DNA from: a virus
Lineage: Duplodnaviria > Heunggongvirae > Uroviricota > Caudoviricetes
Strand: one strand, 5' to 3'
DNA: 49,277 bases
IMG/VR virus record: IMGVR_UViG_2534682330_000007
In this document: piece by piece, positions 2,490 through 36,393 of the stretch
Layout of the letters: every line of letters begins with the position of its first letter
How positions within the stretch are numbered: the stretch's first letter is position 1
Notes under the pieces: model-generated
The model's database searches: none
Seen by the model: only the letters and a program-made list of their open reading frames with translations
What the model was told of the DNA's origin: nothing
Program-made: the position numbers and the translations under genes

Positions 2490-2685
2490 TTCTGATCCTC
2501 TTCAAAAGGCTACCTGTTACTGGTCGATTTAAGTCAACCTTTACCGCTGATTCGTGGAACAGATACTCTCTTCCATCCTTAACCGGAGGAGGGAATATCC
2601 TGCACTCGCGTACCCATCGACGAACTGTTTCAAGGCTTCTTGGGCGTCGCTGGCGTGCGTTCCACTCCTGAAGTGTCAAGTACAT
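2467..2685 (-). CDS. xis: Excisionase, lambda Xis
   Basis: 72 aa MYLTLQEWNARQRRPRSLETVRRWVRECRIFPPPVKDGREYLFHESAVK; overlaps int 3' end as in lambda. Confidence 0.95.
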   Translation of the reverse strand: MYLTLQEWNARQRRPRSLETVRRWVRECRIFPPPVKDGREYLFHESAVKVDLNRPVTGSLLKRIRNGKKAKS

Positions 2686-2979
2686 CGCAAAGTCTCCGCA
2701 ATTACACGCAAGAAAAAACCGCCATCAGGCGGCTTGGTGTTCTTTCAGTTCTTCAATTCGAATATTGGTTACGTCTGCATGTGCTATCTGCGCCCATATC
2801 ATCCAGTGGTTATAACAGTCGTTGATGTTCTCTGCTTCGATAACCCTGTTGAATGGCTCTCCATTCCATTCACCTGTGACTCGGAAGTGCATTTATCATC
2901 TCCATAAAACAAAACTCGCCGTAGCGAGTTCAGATATAATTTCCACCAAAGGCAGTAGTTGCTTGATGCTAAGAATTAT

Positions 2980-3411
2980 TCAATATCTATTCCTGTAATA
3001 TCTTTTATCTTTTATCTTTTTCCTTGCAAAGCCTTTTGCTAGTGATTTTGAAACACTCATAAGTGTACTAATTCCCTCATCCTTAAAGTTTGTTTTTATA
3101 GCTTGCCAGACATCCTTTTGACGTAAGTCAGCAATAAAATCATGCCCTCTTGCTGTCAACCTCAGTGGTACTTCGATCCAACTATATCCAACCCCTTCCC
3201 CTAACGCTTTGGACAATATATGACCGAACCCAGGTTTTCCATCAACCCTGACTATTAATTCGTAGTCACATAATAATCGCATATGGAAAATAAAATCTTG
3301 GTCATATCTATTAAAGCCATTATCCTCTAGTTCACTAAGCATCGTGTCAGGGCCACGAGTTTTTTCGAATGCGATAAGTAGATCTTTTAGATATTGCTGG
3401 TCTAATTTCAT
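2980..3411 (-). CDS. Hypothetical protein, 143 aa (AT-rich accessory island)
   Basis: ORF track; AT-rich codon usage unlike flanking lambda genes; lysine-rich C-terminal tail; no confident family assignment. Confidence 0.6.
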   Translation of the reverse strand: MKLDQQYLKDLLIAFEKTRGPDTMLSELEDNGFNRYDQDFIFHMRLLCDYELIVRVDGKPGFGHILSKALGEGVGYSWIEVPLRLTARGHDFIADLRQKDVWQAIKTNFKDEGISTLMSVSKSLAKGFARKKIKDKRYYRNRY

Positions 3412-8375: not shown

Positions 8376-8744
8376 TCAGGCGGCTTTGATAGTCATATCA
8401 TCTGAATCAAATATTCCTGATGTATCGATATCGGTAATTCTTATTCCTTCACTACCATCCATTGGAGGCCATCCTTCCTGACCATTTCCATCATCCCAGT
8501 CGAACTCACAAACAACACCATATGCATTTAAGTCTTTCGAAATTGCTATAAGCAGAGCATGTTGCGCCAGCATGATTAATACAGCATTTAATAAAGAACC
8601 GTGTTTATTTAGTCGGTATTCAGAGTCTGACCAGAAATTATTAATCTGGTGAAGTTTTTCCTCTGTCATTACGTCATGGTCGATTTCAATTTCTATTGAT
8701 GCTTTCCAGTCGTAATCAATGATGTATTTTTTGATGTTTGACAT
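8376..8744 (-). CDS. ea10: Ea10 (lambda early gene, ssb-like)
   Basis: 122 aa ORF at the lambda ea10 position with the lambda length. Confidence 0.85.
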   Translation of the reverse strand: MSNIKKYIIDYDWKASIEIEIDHDVMTEEKLHQINNFWSDSEYRLNKHGSLLNAVLIMLAQHALLIAISKDLNAYGVVCEFDWDDGNGQEGWPPMDGSEGIRITDIDTSGIFDSDDMTIKAA

Positions 8745-8939
8745 CTGTTCATATCCTCACAGATAAAAAATCGCCCTCACATTAGAGGGCAAAGAAGATT
8801 TCCAATAATCAGAACAAGTCGGCTCCTGTTTAGTTACGAGCGACATTGCTCCGTGTATTCACTCGTTGGAATGAATACACAGTGCTGTGTTTATTCTGTT
8901 GTTTATGCCAAAAATAAAGGCCGACTATGCGGCCTGAAA

Positions 8940-9389
8940 TTACTTAACCAATGATGCTGCATATTCGATAAGGTAAAGCTTTGGGGCCAGCCAAATTTTT
9001 AACCAAGTCATATTGGTTACTACACCAATAATAAAAATCCCCCACAGAGTCAAAACTCCAACCAATGGCATGATAAGAAGGTTAATATCTCCTTTGCTAT
9101 CCCAAACCATTGTCGGCCTGTATTTGGGATTTCCCCTCTCCCATGAGTATCCTTCATCACCGATTTTACCTGTCTCAACTCTTTGGCACTGCTTCTTCAT
9201 AAACCAGAAAACCAGTGGGATTGTTAGAATGGCTATTAATGTTTTAATCAGACTGTCAACCATATTCCATAGCAGCAACTGATGAACAACATCAGGAATC
9301 TGCGCTTGGCTGAATGAAACAGCCGCGTCTATTCCATTGCTGGCTTTTTGCAGTAGTTCTACGAGAATCTTGTTTGCTTGTTCTTCCAT
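8940..9389 (-). CDS. Hypothetical inner-membrane protein, 149 aa (insertion relative to lambda)
   Basis: Two long hydrophobic segments (LIKTLIAILTIPLVFWFM and INLLIMPLVGVLTLWGIFIIGVV); lies between ea10 and ral where lambda has only a short spacer. Confidence 0.6.
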   Translation of the reverse strand: MEEQANKILVELLQKASNGIDAAVSFSQAQIPDVVHQLLLWNMVDSLIKTLIAILTIPLVFWFMKKQCQRVETGKIGDEGYSWERGNPKYRPTMVWDSKGDINLLIMPLVGVLTLWGIFIIGVVTNMTWLKIWLAPKLYLIEYAASLVK

Positions 9390-9448
9390 ATATCCCCTTG
9401 ATTGTAATAAGCATGAAATTATTTACGGCCAAAAAATAAAGGCCACCA

Positions 9449-9649
9449 TCAGGCAGCCTTGTTATTCTGTTTACCAAGTTCTCTGGCAATCATTGCCGTC
9501 GTTCGTATTGCCCATTTATCGACATATTTCCCATCCTCCATTACAGGAAACATTTCTTCAGGCTTAACCATGCATTCCGATTGCAGCTTGCATCCATTGC
9601 ATCGCTCGAATTGTCCACACCATTGATTCTTATCAATAGTCGCAGTCAT
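9449..9649 (-). CDS. ral: Ral (restriction alleviation)
   Basis: 66 aa MTATIDKNQWCGQFERCNGCKLQSECMVKPEEMFPVMEDGKYVDKWAIRTTAMIARELGKQNNKAA matches lambda Ral. Confidence 0.9.
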   Translation of the reverse strand: MTATIDKNQWCGQFERCNGCKLQSECMVKPEEMFPVMEDGKYVDKWAIRTTAMIARELGKQNNKAA

Positions 9650-9777
9650 ACGGATAGTCCTGGTATTGTTCCATCACATCCTGAGGATGCTCTTCGAACT
9701 CTTCAAATTCTTCTTCCATATCTCACCTCAAATAAGTGGTTTGCTGCCTAATTTCATTTTCTGGCGACCAACACAAG

Positions 9778-10050
9778 TCATCTTGCTGTCAGCTGTTTGG
9801 ATTTCCTGTAGCCTGCCGCGTAAATGGCTACATTTGGAAGACAAGTTGAGCCTTCATATTTTCTGGTCAACGTTGTCAGTGTTATTACTTCTGCTCTCAT
9901 TACTGGTTTGCGTTTGCATTGTAAGACCACTCGTGAAGGGGTTGGCCTGTGTAGCTTGTCAGAGCTGATCGCCTCCTGACTTTGCAGGTTTGCACGACGA
10001 GCTCTACGGCGAGAAGCTGCGGTGCCTTTAAATTCTGTTTTTCTGGACAT
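9778..10050 (-). CDS. N-like transcription antiterminator (non-lambda type), about 91 aa
   Basis: ATG at 10050 preceded by GGAGG; N-terminal arginine-rich motif KGTAASRRRARRANLQ like the RNA-binding motif of N proteins; first gene downstream of pL and nutL. Confidence 0.7.
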   Translation of the reverse strand: MSRKTEFKGTAASRRRARRANLQSQEAISSDKLHRPTPSRVVLQCKRKPVMRAEVITLTTLTRKYEGSTCLPNVAIYAAGYRKSKQLTAR

Positions 10051-10148
10051 AGATTCCTCCCGAATAAACTTTGGCGATGCAATCTCGAAGCTCCTCCTGA
10101 GACGGTTGCTTCGGCATTGCATCCCACAGCTTATGTGGTTGGGTGGTC

Positions 10149-10195
10149 TGGCTTTTCAGCCACGTAGTCGAGTGTTCGACGTTGTTTAAAGAGCC
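10149..10195 (-). promoter_or_regulatory. nutL candidate: boxA (GGCTCTTTA) then 24 nt then boxB hairpin (TGGCT-GAAA-AGCCA)
   Basis: Read on the minus strand between pL and N; same boxA-24 nt-boxB architecture as the nutR candidate at 12106-12151. Confidence 0.55.
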
Positions 10196-10240: not shown

Positions 10241-10269
10241 ATAGTACGATATGTACTTTACTTGGTCAA
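10241..10269 (-). promoter_or_regulatory. pL candidate (-35 TTGACC, 17-bp spacer, -10 TACTAT) overlapped by palindromic operator AGTACGATATGTACT (10243-10257)
   Basis: Sigma-70-like hexamers with ideal spacing on the minus strand about 180 nt upstream of N; perfect 15-bp palindrome in the spacer. Confidence 0.55.
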
Positions 10270-10660: not shown

Positions 10661-11041
10661 TTAAGGCCATTGGGTTGGTGGAAGATCGTGGGTTTTTATC
10701 TGCGTATTTGCTTCCACACATTTATCATAGTCTAATTTCTCTACAGCAAGCAATAGTGATTCAGCATACATCAATCCTTGTTTGATGTTCATAACATTTA
10801 TGCTTGCACTTGCGGCATCCATATCCTTTGCTGTCTCTACCATGTGCTCAAAGCTTTGAGCAATAGAGTCAACACCGTTTTTCATCCTTGTAAACACTAA
10901 TTTTAGCTCATCAAGGCTTGGATTCGTTAGATCATACATCCCATGCATTCCATGGGCTTCGAATAACTCTGACAACGATCTAAGGGCGAAGTTCACAGAA
11001 TCAATAACTTGGTCGTACTTTTTCTTATCAAGATCATTCAT
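10661..11041 (-). CDS. Hypothetical protein, 126 aa, in the rexAB slot downstream of cI
   Basis: ORF track; same strand as cI, 66 bp downstream of the cI stop; no resemblance to RexA/RexB noticed. Confidence 0.65.
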   Translation of the reverse strand: MNDLDKKKYDQVIDSVNFALRSLSELFEAHGMHGMYDLTNPSLDELKLVFTRMKNGVDSIAQSFEHMVETAKDMDAASASINVMNIKQGLMYAESLLLAVEKLDYDKCVEANTQIKTHDLPPTQWP

Positions 11042-11107: not shown

Positions 11108-11767
11108 TCACCCAAACGTCTCTTCAGGCCACTGGCTAGCGATAACTTTCCCCACAACGGAACAACTCTCATTGCATGGGATCATTGGGTACTGTGGGTT
11201 TAGTGGTTGTAGAAACACCTGACCGCTATCCCTGATCAGTTTCTTGAAGGTAAACTCATCACCACCAAGTCTGGCTATGCAGAAATCGCCGGGCTCAACA
11301 GCTTGCTCTGGGTCAACCAGAATTAACATCCCGTCAGGAAAACTAGGTTTGGAACCTGTTGGTGCGGTCATTGAGTTACCTTCAACCTCAAGCCAGAATG
11401 CAGAGTCACTGGCTTTTTTGGTTGTGCTTACCAATCTCTCCGCATCGCCTTTGGTAAAGGTTCTGAGTTCTGGAGAGAACATCCCAGCCTGAACATGAGA
11501 AAAAACAGGGTACTCATATTGTTTTTTAACTGGGGCCGATGAGTATTCGCCAACAGGTGAAAATGTCCCGTCGTGGTTGAATGATATGTTATCAATACCA
11601 AGGTATTTAAACACCACACCAATATCACTAAGAGATGGATGACGAGATCCGCGCAACCAGTGTCCAATTCCACCCTGCGTCATACCTAGCTCTTCGGCTA
11701 ACTTCTCTTGAGTTATGCCGAGCTCTTTCATTCTGGATCTAGCCAGTTCATACCATTTCATTTTCAT
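11108..11767 (-). CDS. cI: CI repressor, hybrid: heterologous HTH N-terminal domain plus lambda-type C-terminal dimerisation/autocleavage domain
   Basis: C-terminal 130 aa ([28 protein letters not shown] ... SQWPEETFG) matches lambda CI; N-terminal HTH ([25 protein letters not shown]) does not; start taken at ATG 11767 (ATG 11761 also possible). Confidence 0.9.
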
Positions 11768-11879
11768 GTCCTTATTATTACGCTCTGTACTGGAACCATC
11801 CATGCACAATGTGTATTTTTTGCTTGTGTTTAAGAAGTACATATTGTATTTTTTTATTTGTGGTTACTATGGAGGGCAT
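11768..11879. promoter_or_regulatory. oR region with divergent pRM and pR and operator-like sites of form TAC-N-GTA (e.g. ATTACGCTCTGTACT 11778-11792, AGTACATATTGTATT 11836-11850)
   Basis: 112-bp cI-cro intergenic region; operator-like sequences resemble the oL palindrome; cI start has almost no leader, consistent with a pRM-type transcript. Confidence 0.55.
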
Positions 11880-33839: not shown

Positions 33840-36393
33840 ACCGGTAGGCGATCTGGTCGTTGATTTGAGTCTGGATGCGGCCAGATTTGACGAGCAGATG
33901 GCCAGAGTCAGGCGTCATTTTTCCGGTACGGAAAGTGATGCGAAAAGAACAGCGGCAGTCGTTGAACAGTCGCTGAGCCGACAGGCGCTGGCTGCACAGA
34001 AAGCGGGGATTTCCGTCGGGCAGTATAAAGCCGCCATGCGTATGCTGCCTGCACAGTTCACCGACGTGGCCACGCAGCTTGCAGGCGGGCAAAGTCCGTG
34101 GCTGATCCTGCTGCAACAGGGGGGGCAGGTGAAGGACTCCTTCGGCGGGATGATCCCCATGTTCAGGGGGCTTGCCGGTGCGATCACCCTGCCGATGGTG
34201 GGGGCCACCTCGCTGGCGGTGGCGACCGGTGCGCTGGCGTATGCCTGGTATCAGGGCAACTCAACCCTGTCCGATTTCAACAAAACGCTGGTCCTTTCCG
34301 GCAATCAGGCCGGGCTGACGGCAGATCGTATGCTGGTCCTGTCCAGAGCCGGGCAGGCGGCAGGGCTGACGTTTAACCAGACCAGCGAGTCACTCAGCGC
34401 ACTGGTTAAGGCGGGGGTAAGCGGTGAGGCTCAGATTGCGTCCATCAGCCAGAGTGTGGCGCGTTTCTCCTCTGCATCCGGCGTGGAGGTGGACAAGGTC
34501 GCTGAAGCCTTCGGGAAGCTGACCACTGACCCGACGTCGGGGCTGACGGCGATGGCACGCCAGTTCCATAACGTGACGGCGGAGCAGATTGCGTATGTTG
34601 CTCAGTTGCAGCGTTCCGGCGATGAAGCCGGGGCATTGCAGGCGGCGAACGAGGCCGCAACGAAAGGGTTTGATGACCAGACCCGCCGCCTGAAAGAGAA
34701 CATGGGCACGCTGGAGACCTGGGCAGACAGGACTGCGCGGGCATTCAAATCCATGTGGGATGCGGTGCTGGATATTGATCGTCCTGATACCGCGCAGGAG
34801 ATGCTGATTAAGGCAGAGGCTGCGTTTAAGAAAGCAGACGACATCTGGAATCTGCGCAAGGATGATTATTTTGTTAACGATGAAGCGCGGGCGCGTTACT
34901 GGGATGATCGTGAAAAGGCCCGTCTTGCGCTTGAAGCCGCCCGAAAGAAGGCTGAGCAGCAGACTCAACAGGACAAAAATGCGCAGCAGCAGAGCGATAC
35001 CGAAGCGTCACGGCTGAAATATACCGAAGAGGCGCAGAAGGTTTACGAACGGCTGCAGACACCGCTGGAGAAATATACCGCCCGTCAGGAAGAACTGAAC
35101 AAGGCACTGAAAGACGGGAAAATCCTGCAGGCAGATTACAACACGCTGATGGCGGCGGCGAAAAAGGATTATGAAGCGACGCTGAAAAAGCCGAAACAGT
35201 CCGGCGTGAAGGTGTCTGCGGGCGATCGTCAGGAAGACAGTGCTCATGCTGCCCTGCTGACGCTTCAGGCTGAACTCCGGACGCTGGAGAAGCATGCCGG
35301 AGCAAATGAGAAAATCAGCCAGCAGCGCCGGGATTTGTGGAAGGCGGAGAGTCAGTTCGCGGTACTGGAGGAGGCGGCGCAACGTCGCCAGCTGTCTGCA
35401 CAGGAGAAATCCCTGCTGGCGCATAAAGATGAGACGCTGGAGTACAAACGCCAGCTGGCTGCACTTGGCGACAAGGTTACGTATCAGGAGCGCCTGAACG
35501 CGCTGGCGCAGCAGGCGGATAAATTCGCACAGCAGCAACGGGCAAAACGGGCCGCCATTGATGCGAAAAGCCGGGGGCTGACTGACCGGCAGGCAGAACG
35601 GGAAGCCACGGAACAGCGCCTGAAGGAACAGTATGGCGATAATCCGCTGGCGCTGAATAACGTCATGTCAGAGCAGAAAAAGACCTGGGCGGCTGAAGAC
35701 CAGCTTCGCGGGAGCTGGATGGCAGGCCTGAAGTCCGGCTGGAGTGAGTGGGAAGAGAGCGCCACGGACAGTATGTCGCAGGTTAAAAGTGCAGCCACGC
35801 AGACCTTTGATGGTATTGCACAGAATATGGCGGCGATGCTGACCGGCAGTGAGCAGAACTGGCGCAGCTTTACCCGTTCCGTGCTGTCCATGATGACAGA
35901 AATTCTGCTTAAGCAGGCAATGGTGGGGATTGTCGGGAGTATCGGCAGCGCCATTGGCGGGGCTGTTGGTGGCGGCGCATCCGCGTCAGGCGGTACAGCC
36001 ATTCAGGCAGCTGCGGCGAAATTCCATTTTGCGACCGGGGGATTTACGGGAACCGGCGGCAAATATGAGCCAGCGGGGATTGTTCACCGTGGTGAATTTG
36101 TCTTCACGAAGGAGGCAACCAGCCGGATTGGCGTGGGGAATCTCTACCGGCTGATGCGCGGCTATGCCACCGGTGGTTATGTCGGTGGCACCGGAAGTCC
36201 GGCGCAAATGCGGCGTTCAGAGGGTATCAGGTTTGAGCAGAACAACAACATGGTGATTCAGAACGACGGTACGAATGGTCTGCCAGGTCCACAGATGATG
36301 AAAGCAGTGTATGACATGGCCCGCAAGGGTGCCCGTGATGAAATTCAGACACAGATGCGTGATGGTGGCCTGTTCTCCGGAGGTGGACGATGA
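33832..36393 (+). CDS. H: Tail tape measure protein H
   Basis: 853 aa, lambda gpH match. Confidence 0.97.
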   Translation: MAEPVGDLVVDLSLDAARFDEQMARVRRHFSGTESDAKRTAAVVEQSLSRQALAAQKAGISVGQYKAAMRMLPAQFTDVATQLAGGQSPWLILLQQGGQVKDSFGGMIPMFRGLAGAITLPMVGATSLAVATGALAYAWYQGNSTLSDFNKTLVLSGNQAGLTADRMLVLSRAGQAAGLTFNQTSESLSALVKAGVSGEAQIASISQSVARFSSASGVEVDKVAEAFGKLTTDPTSGLTAMARQFHNVTAEQIAYVAQLQRSGDEAGALQAANEAATKGFDDQTRRLKENMGTLETWADRTARAFKSMWDAVLDIDRPDTAQEMLIKAEAAFKKADDIWNLRKDDYFVNDEARARYWDDREKARLALEAARKKAEQQTQQDKNAQQQSDTEASRLKYTEEAQKVYERLQTPLEKYTARQEELNKALKDGKILQADYNTLMAAAKKDYEATLKKPKQSGVKVSAGDRQEDSAHAALLTLQAELRTLEKHAGANEKISQQRRDLWKAESQFAVLEEAAQRRQLSAQEKSLLAHKDETLEYKRQLAALGDKVTYQERLNALAQQADKFAQQQRAKRAAIDAKSRGLTDRQAEREATEQRLKEQYGDNPLALNNVMSEQKKTWAAEDQLRGSWMAGLKSGWSEWEESATDSMSQVKSAATQTFDGIAQNMAAMLTGSEQNWRSFTRSVLSMMTEILLKQAMVGIVGSIGSAIGGAVGGGASASGGTAIQAAAAKFHFATGGFTGTGGKYEPAGIVHRGEFVFTKEATSRIGVGNLYRLMRGYATGGYVGGTGSPAQMRRSEGIRFEQNNNMVIQNDGTNGLPGPQMMKAVYDMARKGARDEIQTQMRDGGLFSGGGR

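What the first reader, a model, noticed from the sequence alone, without database searches (positions are those of the whole stretch)
8745..9448. Membrane-protein gene inserted between ea10 and ral
Lambda has only a short spacer between ea10 and ral; here about 700 bp encode a 149-aa protein with two long hydrophobic segments. Small membrane proteins in the pL operon include superinfection-exclusion proteins (SieB type), so this is a candidate exclusion or abortive-infection factor, possibly a relocated SieB analogue. The ral-N spacer here is only 128 bp, with no sieB.
Basis: partly seen in the sequence, partly recalled or inferred. Interest (0 to 1): 0.5.

Follow-up and report, generated by a model that had tools for sequence, protein, structure and literature searches.

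The report
Mobile phage membrane-protein gene, not SieB
A 522-bp cassette inserted between the ea10 and ral genes of this lambda-like prophage encodes a two-pass membrane protein that is unrelated to SieB and belongs to a very large phage protein family, found in both virulent and temperate phages, whose function nobody has yet determined.

Summary
Window 8940..9389 (- strand) is a real 149-aa gene with two hydrophobic helices. It lies in a 704-bp ea10-ral interval that is 182 bp in lambda. The extra 522 bp is a clean cassette bracketed by a duplicated 16-bp terminator half-site, and the ral-N spacer is 128 bp with no sieB anywhere in the window.

The SieB interpretation is not supported. There is no sequence or profile similarity to lambda SieB or T4 Imm, and no Pfam, NCBIfam or PADLOC hit. 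The protein belongs to PHROG 3054 (unknown function), with about 2,570 clusters at 50% identity. Members include Sf6 gene 34 and phi92 gp220, and occur in virulent N4-like, phAPEC8-like and jumbo phages as well as temperate ones.

All members share nearly invariant N- and C-terminal tails around a variable TM1-loop-TM2 core. Charge bias predicts both tails in the periplasm. No promoter above background precedes the gene, so it is probably made from the N-antiterminated pL transcript during lytic growth, not in the lysogen.

My best guess, at low confidence, is an early-acting envelope protein, either Imm-like exclusion of incoming genomes or counter-defence. One family member in a published 200-gene screen had no reported phenotype. 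The locus is ordinary; the family is uncharacterized and moderately interesting.

The parts
8940..9389 (-). Gene for a 149-aa two-pass inner-membrane protein of PHROG 3054. It has a conserved N-tail (residues 1-45), TM1 (about 46-65), a loop (66-103), TM2 (about 104-126) and a conserved C-tail (127-149).
   Evidence: ORF and translation; hydropathy; PHROG 3054 at E 2.8e-64; homologues; alignments A3 to A5
8923..9444 (-). The 522-bp insertion relative to lambda. Its exact ends are ambiguous within the 16-bp repeat. It carries the leader and ribosome-binding site, the ORF and the 5' arm of a new terminator hairpin.
   Evidence: DNA alignment with lambda, Sf6, HF4s and Gally; repeat coordinates and spacer arithmetic, 704 - 182 = 522
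9428..9444 (.). Upstream (ral-proximal) copy of the direct repeat GCCAAAAA(A)TAAAGGCC. It is the 3' arm plus T-tract of the hairpin that overlaps the ral stop codon.
8907..8922 (.). Downstream copy of the direct repeat. Lambda has a single copy at 34067-34082.
9439..9460 (-). Terminator-like hairpin directly after ral (9 pairs followed by TATTTTTT). It is also present in lambda.
   Evidence: fold at -17.2 kcal/mol, z -2.9; alignment
8918..8935 (-). Terminator-like hairpin 4 nt after the ORF stop codon (GGCCGCATAGTCGGCC followed by TTTATTTTT)
   Evidence: fold at -9.7 kcal/mol, z -1.35, so weak
8771..8792 (-). Homologue of lambda tL2a. It lies in the 173-bp stretch (8745-8917) that is the lambda-type ea10-ral spacer, not part of the insertion.
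   Evidence: Sf6 record annotates the aligned hairpin as 'homology to phage lambda; tL2A' and the adjacent stretch as boundary sequence bsq4; alignment
9449..9649 (-). ral (restriction alleviation), the upstream neighbour in the same operon
   Evidence: Pfam Ral at E 2.3e-47
8376..8744 (-). ea10 (DUF2528), the downstream neighbour
   Evidence: Pfam DUF2528 at E 3.8e-46
9778..10122 (-). N-type antiterminator gene, of a non-lambda N type. Its product is expected to let pL transcription read through the hairpins that flank the ORF.
   Evidence: Pfam N_peptide at E 1.5e-32
10241..10269 (-). pL-like promoter candidate (TTGACC-17-TACTAT) upstream of N
   Evidence: consensus match only

Best explanation
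SHOWN: the region is a 522-bp accessory-gene cassette. Relative to lambda it sits exactly at the terminator hairpin that follows ral, and it duplicates that hairpin's 16-bp 3' half. It encodes a 149-aa helical-hairpin membrane protein of PHROG 3054, a very large phage-specific family with no assigned function and no relation to SieB or Imm. The family has nearly invariant N-terminal (about 45 aa) and C-terminal (about 22 aa, WLKIWLAPKLYLIEYAASLVK) tails. Between them lie two variable transmembrane helices and a loop that varies from about 10 to 75 aa. INFERRED, moderate confidence: the gene has no promoter of its own and is co-directional with N and ral, so it is transcribed from pL by N-modified polymerase that reads through the flanking hairpins. 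It would then be a delayed-early lytic or induction product, not a lysogen product. Charge distribution predicts an N-out / loop-in / C-out topology, which places both invariant tails at the periplasmic face of the inner membrane with the TM hairpin acting mainly as an anchor. SPECULATIVE, the mechanism I commit to at low confidence: the tails bind a component of the cell envelope that is conserved across Proteobacteria, or they self-assemble there. This alters the inner-membrane entry step soon after infection so that genomes of later-arriving phages are excluded. That would be a T4 Imm-like role performed by an unrelated protein. Counter-defence against a membrane-associated host system is nearly as likely.
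For: Anatomy: alignment with lambda, Sf6, HF4s and Gally and the repeat and length arithmetic. Family: PHROG 3054 for all 49 diverse members tested, 2,573 clusters in the profile search, and 177 phage records. Not SieB or Imm. Lytic-cycle role: members occur in virulent Schitoviridae, Stephanstirmvirinae (including phi92 gp220) and a jumbo phage, lying among RNA polymerase, dUTPase, thymidylate synthase and nuclease genes. In HF4s the gene abuts N. No promoter stands above background: 23% of same-size tiles in the window score at least as high, and the stricter scan finds none. Only about 25 nt upstream travels with the gene in PhiR46_1. Conserved tails and variable core: alignments. Topology, on 120 non-redundant members: the first 6 loop residues carry 1.4-1.8 K/R against about 0.1 D/E in every loop-length class, while the last 25 N-tail residues carry about 0.8 K/R against 2.2-2.7 D/E. 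AlphaFold models the TM hairpin at pLDDT 76-88 but the invariant tails only at 43-63, which fits segments that fold on a partner or in an oligomer. Small inner-membrane proteins at accessory positions are the classic form of injection-blocking exclusion proteins (T4 Imm, P22 SieA in PMC10883804, HK97 gp15; established knowledge).
Against: No experiment bears on function. A family member, SPN9CC AEW47744.1 (local ID 1047, 'UDP0047'), was one of 200 accessory genes screened in wild E. coli by Silas et al. (bioRxiv 10.1101/2023.04.06.535777, Suppl. File 3). It is not among the genes listed there with a conditional-lethal, counter-defence or protective phenotype, although the authors say exclusion phenotypes were hard to detect. 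The same protein variant (97-99% identical) occurs in lambda-like, P22-like and Stx phages, so there is no match between variant and virion type of the kind expected for a specific exclusion protein. The topology rests on charge bias alone, and the C-tail carries 3 Lys and is fairly hydrophobic. A weak promoter cannot be excluded: an AATAAT hexamer lies 28 nt upstream of the ATG. In other phages the gene sits in late operons, so timing is not uniform across the family.
Confidence: 0.3

Rival explanations
1. Counter-defence or host-takeover protein. The conserved tails would bind and neutralise a conserved membrane-associated host factor, such as a membrane-anchored abortive-infection effector or sensor, or a protease, division or transport component. 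This would help the phage that carries the gene rather than exclude others.
For: The gene sits in the pL accessory region next to ral (anti-restriction) and near gam. It lies in early regions of virulent phages. Tails are conserved across phages of Vibrio, Pseudomonas, Ralstonia and enterobacteria, which suggests a conserved host target. The same variant is used by phages of different morphotypes. Silas et al. chose a member as a candidate accessory gene.
Against: That screen lists no counter-defence phenotype for the member tested. In my knowledge nearly all known anti-defence proteins are soluble. No target can be proposed from sequence or fold.
Confidence: 0.25
2. A true moron expressed from the prophage, as the first reader proposed in spirit. 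A weak constitutive promoter in the 50 nt between the ral terminator and the ATG would drive expression in lysogens, giving lysogenic conversion or exclusion of heteroimmune phages.
For: The gene is a discrete cassette bounded by terminator-like hairpins and lies between genes that are adjacent in lambda. It moves between unrelated slots, including late operons and structural clusters, as morons do. There is a 5/6 -10-like hexamer AATAAT ending at 9418 downstream of a T-rich tract.
Against: Promoter scores are no better than background and the stricter scan finds none. The putative -10 is absent in HF4s and PhiR46_1. The family is abundant in virulent phages, which have no lysogenic state. The ORF's GC content (40.7%) lies between those of its neighbours (37% and 43%).
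Confidence: 0.15
3. A pore-forming or lysis-timing protein (holin, antiholin or viroporin-like). The protein would oligomerise through its conserved tails and change membrane permeability or potential.
For: It is a small two-TM phage protein. The conserved tails are poorly modelled as a monomer, which is compatible with oligomerisation. In PhiR46_1 it lies about 1.6 kb downstream of the lysis cassette.
Against: In this window, and in Sf6, HF4s, Gally and the virulent phages examined, it lies in early regions and never next to an endolysin. PhiR46_1 already has an annotated holin. There is no hit to any Pfam holin family among 49 members. It lacks the highly charged C-terminus typical of holins.
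Confidence: 0.1
4. A relocated SieB, or a SieB analogue that causes abortive infection.
For: Only the genomic neighbourhood and the absence of sieB from the ral-N spacer.
Against: No similarity at sequence or profile level. The size and architecture differ: SieB is 184-192 aa. Lambda sieB is on the opposite strand. The family is widespread in virulent phages.
Confidence: 0.03

Closest known systems
Shigella phage Sf6 gene 34 protein (AAQ12224.1) and other PHROG 3054 members (HF4s 'TM helix-containing protein' QOI58141.1, Gally GALLYPH_30, phi92 gp220, SPN9CC AEW47744.1)
   Same: Homologous. HF4s, Gally and Stx2_EH2086 encode 98.7-99.3% identical proteins. In Sf6 the gene occupies the same slot between ral and the tL2a/bsq4 boundary sequence. 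All share the invariant N- and C-tails.
   Different: The Sf6, SPN9CC, HK633 and CUS-3 versions carry a different TM1-loop-TM2 middle, giving 51% overall identity although the ends match at the DNA level. Here the downstream neighbour is ea10, an arrangement found in 84 of 5,426 complete E. coli genomes. None of these proteins has a known function.
T4 Imm (Pfam PF14373, superinfection immunity protein)
   Same: A small early-expressed two-TM inner-membrane phage protein. It is the functional model I favour, and it also occurs in virulent phages.
   Different: No detectable homology (hhalign probability 0.1%). Imm is 83 aa and lacks the long conserved N-tail and the C-tail motif. An exclusion function has not been demonstrated for this family.
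Lambda/P22 SieB (superinfection exclusion protein B)
   Same: A membrane-associated protein encoded in the N-ral neighbourhood of lambdoid phages.
   Different: No homology. SieB is encoded on the opposite strand between ral and N. It is expressed in the lysogen and acts by abortive infection (established knowledge, Ranade and Poteete 1993). It has a narrow distribution, 20 phage records against 177 for this family.
Morons of lambdoid phages (for example HK97 gene 15, lambda bor and lom)
   Same: A discrete gene inserted between genes that are adjacent in a relative, ending in its own terminator hairpin, and found in different slots in different phages.
   Different: No recognisable promoter of its own. 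It is transcribed in the same direction as the operon and is abundant in virulent phages.

Membership tests
PHROG 3054 (uncharacterized phage membrane protein family) | Significant full-length match to the family profile | tested here: met
   E 2.8e-64, residues 1-149 against profile positions 1-137 of 137. All 49 diverse relatives also match.
PHROG 3054 (uncharacterized phage membrane protein family) | Shared architecture: conserved N-tail (F26, P32, L39, W41), two TM helices, and the C-tail motif W-L-K-I-W-x-A-P-K-L-Y-L-x-E-Y-A-A | tested here: met
   Alignments A2 to A5; hydropathy
SieB (Pfam SieB; lambda and P22 superinfection exclusion protein B) | Sequence or profile similarity to SieB | tested here: not met
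   BLASTP E 0.22 over 19 residues; hhalign probability 0.1%; no Pfam hit at E up to 1
SieB (Pfam SieB; lambda and P22 superinfection exclusion protein B) | Location between ral and N on the strand opposite to pL | tested here: not met
   The ORF lies between ea10 and ral on the pL strand. Lambda sieB is on the + strand at 34482-35033.
SieB (Pfam SieB; lambda and P22 superinfection exclusion protein B) | Expression in the lysogen and an abortive-infection phenotype | not testable with these tools
   Requires transcript mapping and phage challenge. Promoter scans are negative.
T4 Imm (PF14373) | Sequence or profile similarity | tested here: not met
   hhalign probability 0.1%; no Pfam hit
T4 Imm (PF14373) | Blocks DNA injection by superinfecting phage | not testable with these tools
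   Needs experiment
Moron (independent transcription unit inserted between conserved genes) | Inserted between two genes that are adjacent in a related phage | tested here: met
   Lambda has ea10 and ral 182 bp apart. The window carries the same flanks plus 522 bp.
Moron (independent transcription unit inserted between conserved genes) | Own terminator downstream | tested here: met
   Hairpin at 8935..8918 followed by a T-run, although its folding energy is weak (z -1.35)
Moron (independent transcription unit inserted between conserved genes) | Own promoter upstream | tested here: not met
   No site in the consensus scan. The best lenient score is matched or exceeded by 23% of window tiles. 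The upstream sequence is not conserved with the gene in HF4s or PhiR46_1. This rests on sequence only, so a weak promoter is not excluded.
Moron (independent transcription unit inserted between conserved genes) | Base composition distinct from neighbours | tested here: inconclusive
   Insert 40.3% GC, ea10 37.1%, ral 43.3%, whole window 50.2%
Holins | Adjacent to endolysin or spanin genes in the late lysis cassette, with a charged C-terminal tail | tested here: not met
   Early-operon location here and in Sf6, HF4s, Gally and the virulent phages examined. No holin Pfam hit. The C-tail is hydrophobic.
Known anti-phage defence proteins (PADLOC-DB) | Match to any defence-system model | tested here: not met
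   0 families at E up to 10

The most novel reading that the evidence does not exclude
PHROG 3054 may be a previously unrecognised and very widespread class of phage envelope effector. A disposable TM hairpin would present two invariant short segments at the periplasmic face of the inner membrane, where they act on a host component conserved across Proteobacteria. The effect would be either a near-universal early block to secondary genome entry or neutralisation of a membrane-based defence. Virulent and temperate phages alike would use it, and it would spread as a small cassette by recombination at terminators and within its own conserved ends.
Probability: 0.3. Interest if true: 0.65.

Novelty: new member of a known kind. 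Interest (0 to 1): 0.4.

Why it matters
As a locus this is ordinary: one more accessory cassette in the mosaic pL region of a lambdoid prophage. It is already present in Sf6 (gene 34, sequenced in 2004) and in about 1.5% of complete E. coli genomes. What deserves attention is the family. It has about 2,570 sequence clusters, no Pfam entry and no annotation. It occurs in model and therapeutic-type phages (Sf6, phi92, N4-like, phAPEC8-like, Stx phages). Its conservation pattern is unusual, with invariant extramembrane tails and an exchangeable membrane core, which points to one conserved molecular target. Identifying that target would annotate thousands of phage genes at once and could reveal a general envelope-level step in phage-phage or phage-host conflict.

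Tried and rejected
SieB homology was rejected, as was T4 Imm homology. Pfam, NCBIfam and PADLOC gave nothing for the protein. Pfam scans of 49 diverse members gave only scattered single-member noise hits. A PDB sequence-profile search gave nothing meaningful (best E 1.3).

Two AlphaFold runs, with 28 and 54 sequences, reached a mean pLDDT of only 68-69 with low-confidence tails. Foldseek against the PDB and BFVD gave no match at E <= 0.001, so fold-based inference was abandoned. The third fold search (AFDB) was not run for that reason.

Literature searches for the PHROG id, for sequence motifs and for Sf6 gp34 found nothing about function. I asked whether orf184 of Silas et al., which triggers gop-beta-cII and shares an accessory region with ral, might be this gene. 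I could not establish that. The family member found in their library is local ID 1047 (UDP0047).

A plasmid search found only phage-plasmid-sized or phage-derived records, and no leading-region or entry-exclusion context was apparent. I looked for a conserved partner gene in neighbourhoods and found none. The idea that the C-tail is a clean amphipathic interfacial helix was weakened by a low hydrophobic moment (0.20).

Full report
OBSERVATION. The interval 8745..9448 lies between ea10 (8376..8744, - strand; Pfam DUF2528, E 3.8e-46) and ral (9449..9649, - strand; Pfam Ral, E 2.3e-47). It contains one long ORF, 8940..9389 on the - strand. The ORF is 149 aa, starts with ATG and is preceded by AAGGGG. 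Kyte-Doolittle windows show two transmembrane-length hydrophobic segments, at residues about 46-65 (peak 2.0) and about 104-126 (peak 2.45), separated by a hydrophilic stretch of 38 residues. The ral-N spacer is 128 bp (9650..9777). N here is a non-lambda member of the N_peptide family (E 1.5e-32). tblastn with lambda SieB finds nothing in the window (best E 0.98).

ANATOMY OF THE INSERTION.
- I aligned the - strand with lambda, Sf6, HF4s and Gally. The window is collinear with lambda through the end of ral and again from 'GGCCTTTATTTTTGGCATAAA...' down to ea10.
- Lambda has one copy of GCCAAAAATAAAGGCC (34067-34082). The window has two, at 8907-8922 and 9428-9444. The ea10-ral spacer is 704 bp here against 182 bp in lambda, a difference of exactly 522 bp.
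- The repeat is the 3' arm plus T-tract of the hairpin that overlaps the ral stop codon (9460..9439; 9 pairs; -17.2 kcal/mol, z -2.9). The cassette ends with its own, weaker hairpin that uses the second copy (8935..8918).
- The remaining 173 bp (8745-8917) is the ordinary lambda-type spacer. It includes the hairpin that the Sf6 record annotates as the tL2a homologue and the 'bsq4 boundary sequence'.
- The same cassette lies downstream of ral in Sf6 (gene 34), downstream of an unnamed hypothetical gene in Gally, directly after N with no ral and no hairpin in HF4s, and in Stx2a phages.
- The exact ea10-cassette-ral arrangement occurs at 98-100% identity in 84 of 5,426 complete E. coli genomes, including ETEC H10407, and is always annotated 'hypothetical protein'.

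WHAT THE PROTEIN IS.
- Pfam, NCBIfam and PADLOC give no hit. PHROGs gives a full-length match to phrog_3054, 'unknown function' (E 2.8e-64).
- The word-indexed search found 516 clusters at 90% identity, nearly all 149 aa, from Escherichia, Salmonella, Citrobacter, Cronobacter, Pantoea and others, and all unnamed.
- A profile search of 1.84 billion representatives found 2,573 clusters at E <= 1e-3 and 1,175 at E <= 1e-10.
- tblastn against 50,697 phage genomes found 177 records. These include temperate lambda-like and P22-like phages. They also include virulent phages: Schitoviridae (FSL SP-058, Shigella B2, Vibrio 1.245.O), Stephanstirmvirinae (arall, muut, phi92 gp220), many Vibrio phages, Pseudomonas phages, and the Ralstonia jumbo phage RsoM2USA with three copies.
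- In the virulent phages examined, the gene lies among early or DNA-metabolism genes (RNA polymerase subunits, dUTPase, thymidylate synthase, DUF2800 nuclease) and never beside an endolysin.
- Elsewhere it occupies other accessory slots. In PhiR46_1 it lies between the lysis genes and Nu1. In metagenomic P22-like contigs it lies between the gene 4 and gene 10 homologues. In another contig it lies just before small terminase.
- Plasmid hits are phage-plasmid-sized or phage-derived records. No conserved neighbour emerged.

FAMILY ARCHITECTURE.
- Alignments of 29, 49 and 54 members show a striking pattern. The first 45 or so residues (consensus MNEQAxxxLxxLLxKAxxGxDAAVxFSQAQIPDVIxQLLxW; F26, P32, L39 and W41 invariant across 49 sequences as low as 31% identical) and the last 22 or so (WLKIWLAPKLYLIEYAASLVK; P136 invariant) are nearly constant. 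TM1, the loop (about 10-75 aa) and TM2 vary freely.
- Sf6, SPN9CC, HK633 and CUS-3 share the 5' 130 nt or so and the 3' 80 nt or so with the window gene at the DNA level but carry a different middle. The core is therefore exchanged by recombination within the conserved ends.
- Within the enterobacterial subfamily the loop has its own conserved residues (G74, W83, G86, P88, T93, W96, G100).
- AlphaFold, run with 28 and with 54 sequences, models the TM hairpin and loop at pLDDT 70-88 but the invariant tails at only 43-63. Foldseek finds nothing in the PDB or BFVD. Segments that are highly conserved yet poorly modelled in a monomer are what one expects for partner-binding or oligomerising elements. 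This is an inference.

TOPOLOGY (inferred).
- In 120 representatives at 50% identity or less, the six residues after TM1 carry 1.4-1.8 K/R and about 0.1 D/E in every loop-length class. The 25 residues before TM1 carry about 0.8 K/R and 2.2-2.7 D/E. The N-tail has a net charge of about -3.
- By the positive-inside rule this favours N-out / loop-in / C-out, with both invariant tails at the periplasmic face.
- The caveats are that the C-tail carries three Lys and is moderately hydrophobic with a low hydrophobic moment, and that no dedicated topology predictor or experiment was available.

EXPRESSION (inferred).
- The gene is co-directional with N and ral, downstream of a pL-like site at 10269..10241.
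- The consensus scan finds no promoter between ral and the ATG. In a lenient scan, the best score in the 211 nt upstream is matched or exceeded by 23% of same-size tiles across the window.
- Only about 25 nt upstream (the ribosome-binding region) travels with the gene in PhiR46_1. In HF4s the gene abuts N.
- Together with the family's abundance in virulent phages, this indicates a delayed-early product made from the N-antiterminated pL transcript.
- A weak promoter cannot be excluded: an AATAAT hexamer ends at 9418.

COMPARISON WITH KNOWN SYSTEMS.
- Lambda SieB, the + strand ORF at 34482-35033 that current lambda records annotate as SieB, shows no similarity. BLASTP gives E 0.22 over 19 residues and hhalign of the family profile gives probability 0.1%.
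- T4 Imm likewise shows no similarity.
- SieB is rare among phage records (20). This family is not (177).
- The cassette meets two moron criteria: insertion between genes adjacent in a relative, and a terminator of its own. It does not meet the promoter criterion.
- One family member, SPN9CC AEW47744.1 (local ID 1047, 'UDP0047', a 121-aa short-loop variant), was among the 200 accessory genes that Silas et al. expressed in wild E. coli strains with and without phage challenge (bioRxiv 10.1101/2023.04.06.535777, Supplementary File 3).
- It is not among the genes listed there with a phenotype. The authors note that exclusion phenotypes were variable in their set-up (also PMC12373910).
- No other literature on the family was found.

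MECHANISM.
- Shown: the cassette, its membrane-protein product, family membership, and non-membership of SieB, Imm and the PADLOC families.
- Inferred: early pL-driven expression, and periplasm-facing invariant tails anchored by an exchangeable hairpin.
- Speculative: the tails act on a conserved envelope component or self-assemble.
- I favour an Imm-like early block to entry of secondary genomes (about 0.3). Counter-defence or host takeover at the membrane is close behind (about 0.25). Prophage-expressed moron function (about 0.15) and pore or lysis-timing function (about 0.1) follow. A SieB analogue is very unlikely (about 0.03).
- One observation argues against a narrowly specific exclusion determinant and for a host-side target: the identical variant occurs in lambda-like, P22-like and Stx phages.

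VERDICT. The family behind it is large, unannotated and has an unusual conservation pattern, which gives the finding moderate interest (0.4).

Noticed in passing
window 10661..11041 (- strand): A 126-aa ORF lies directly downstream of the CI-like repressor gene (11108..11842, HTH_3 + Peptidase_S24), in the position where lambda has rexAB. It matches phrog_16322 (unknown function) and no Pfam family. Its position makes it a better candidate for a lysogen-expressed exclusion gene than the ORF of this finding.
   Followed up: partly
window 8940..9389 compared with L002 (Sf6) 2676..3098: The gene is itself mosaic. Sf6, SPN9CC, HK633, CUS-3 and N7 share the first 130 nt or so and the last 80 nt or so at about 94% DNA identity but have an unrelated TM1-loop-TM2 middle. 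The conserved ends therefore act as recombination sites for swapping the core.
   Followed up: partly
L013 5001-5543; L015 5001-5498; L014 5001-5441; L009 3001-3450: Family members occupy very different slots. They lie between P22 gene 4 and gene 10 homologues, next to an HNH gene in L015, immediately before small terminase, and between Rz and Nu1 in lambdoid PhiR46_1.
   Followed up: partly
Ralstonia jumbo phage RsoM2USA (MG752970.1), L011 around 3001-3342: tblastn reports three separate places for the family in this one genome, which suggests paralogous expansion. Only one place was inspected.
   Followed up: no
window 9778..10122 and 9650..9777: N is a non-lambda N_peptide family member. 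The Pfam match starts at residue 23 of the 114-aa ORF, so the true start may be an internal Met. The 128-bp N-ral spacer replaces the roughly 750 bp that in lambda carries sieB on the opposite strand.
   Followed up: partly
window 8745..8917: This stretch is almost identical in lambda, Sf6, HF4s and Gally, although those phages have different genes downstream of it. It corresponds to the 'bsq4 boundary sequence' plus the tL2a homologue annotated in Sf6. It is a conserved junction where lambdoid modules are joined.
   Followed up: partly
window 10167..10180 (+ strand coordinates): A short inverted repeat, GTCGAGTGTTCGAC, lies between the pL-like site and N. It might be the boxB of nutL for this N type. 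I did not examine it further.
   Followed up: no
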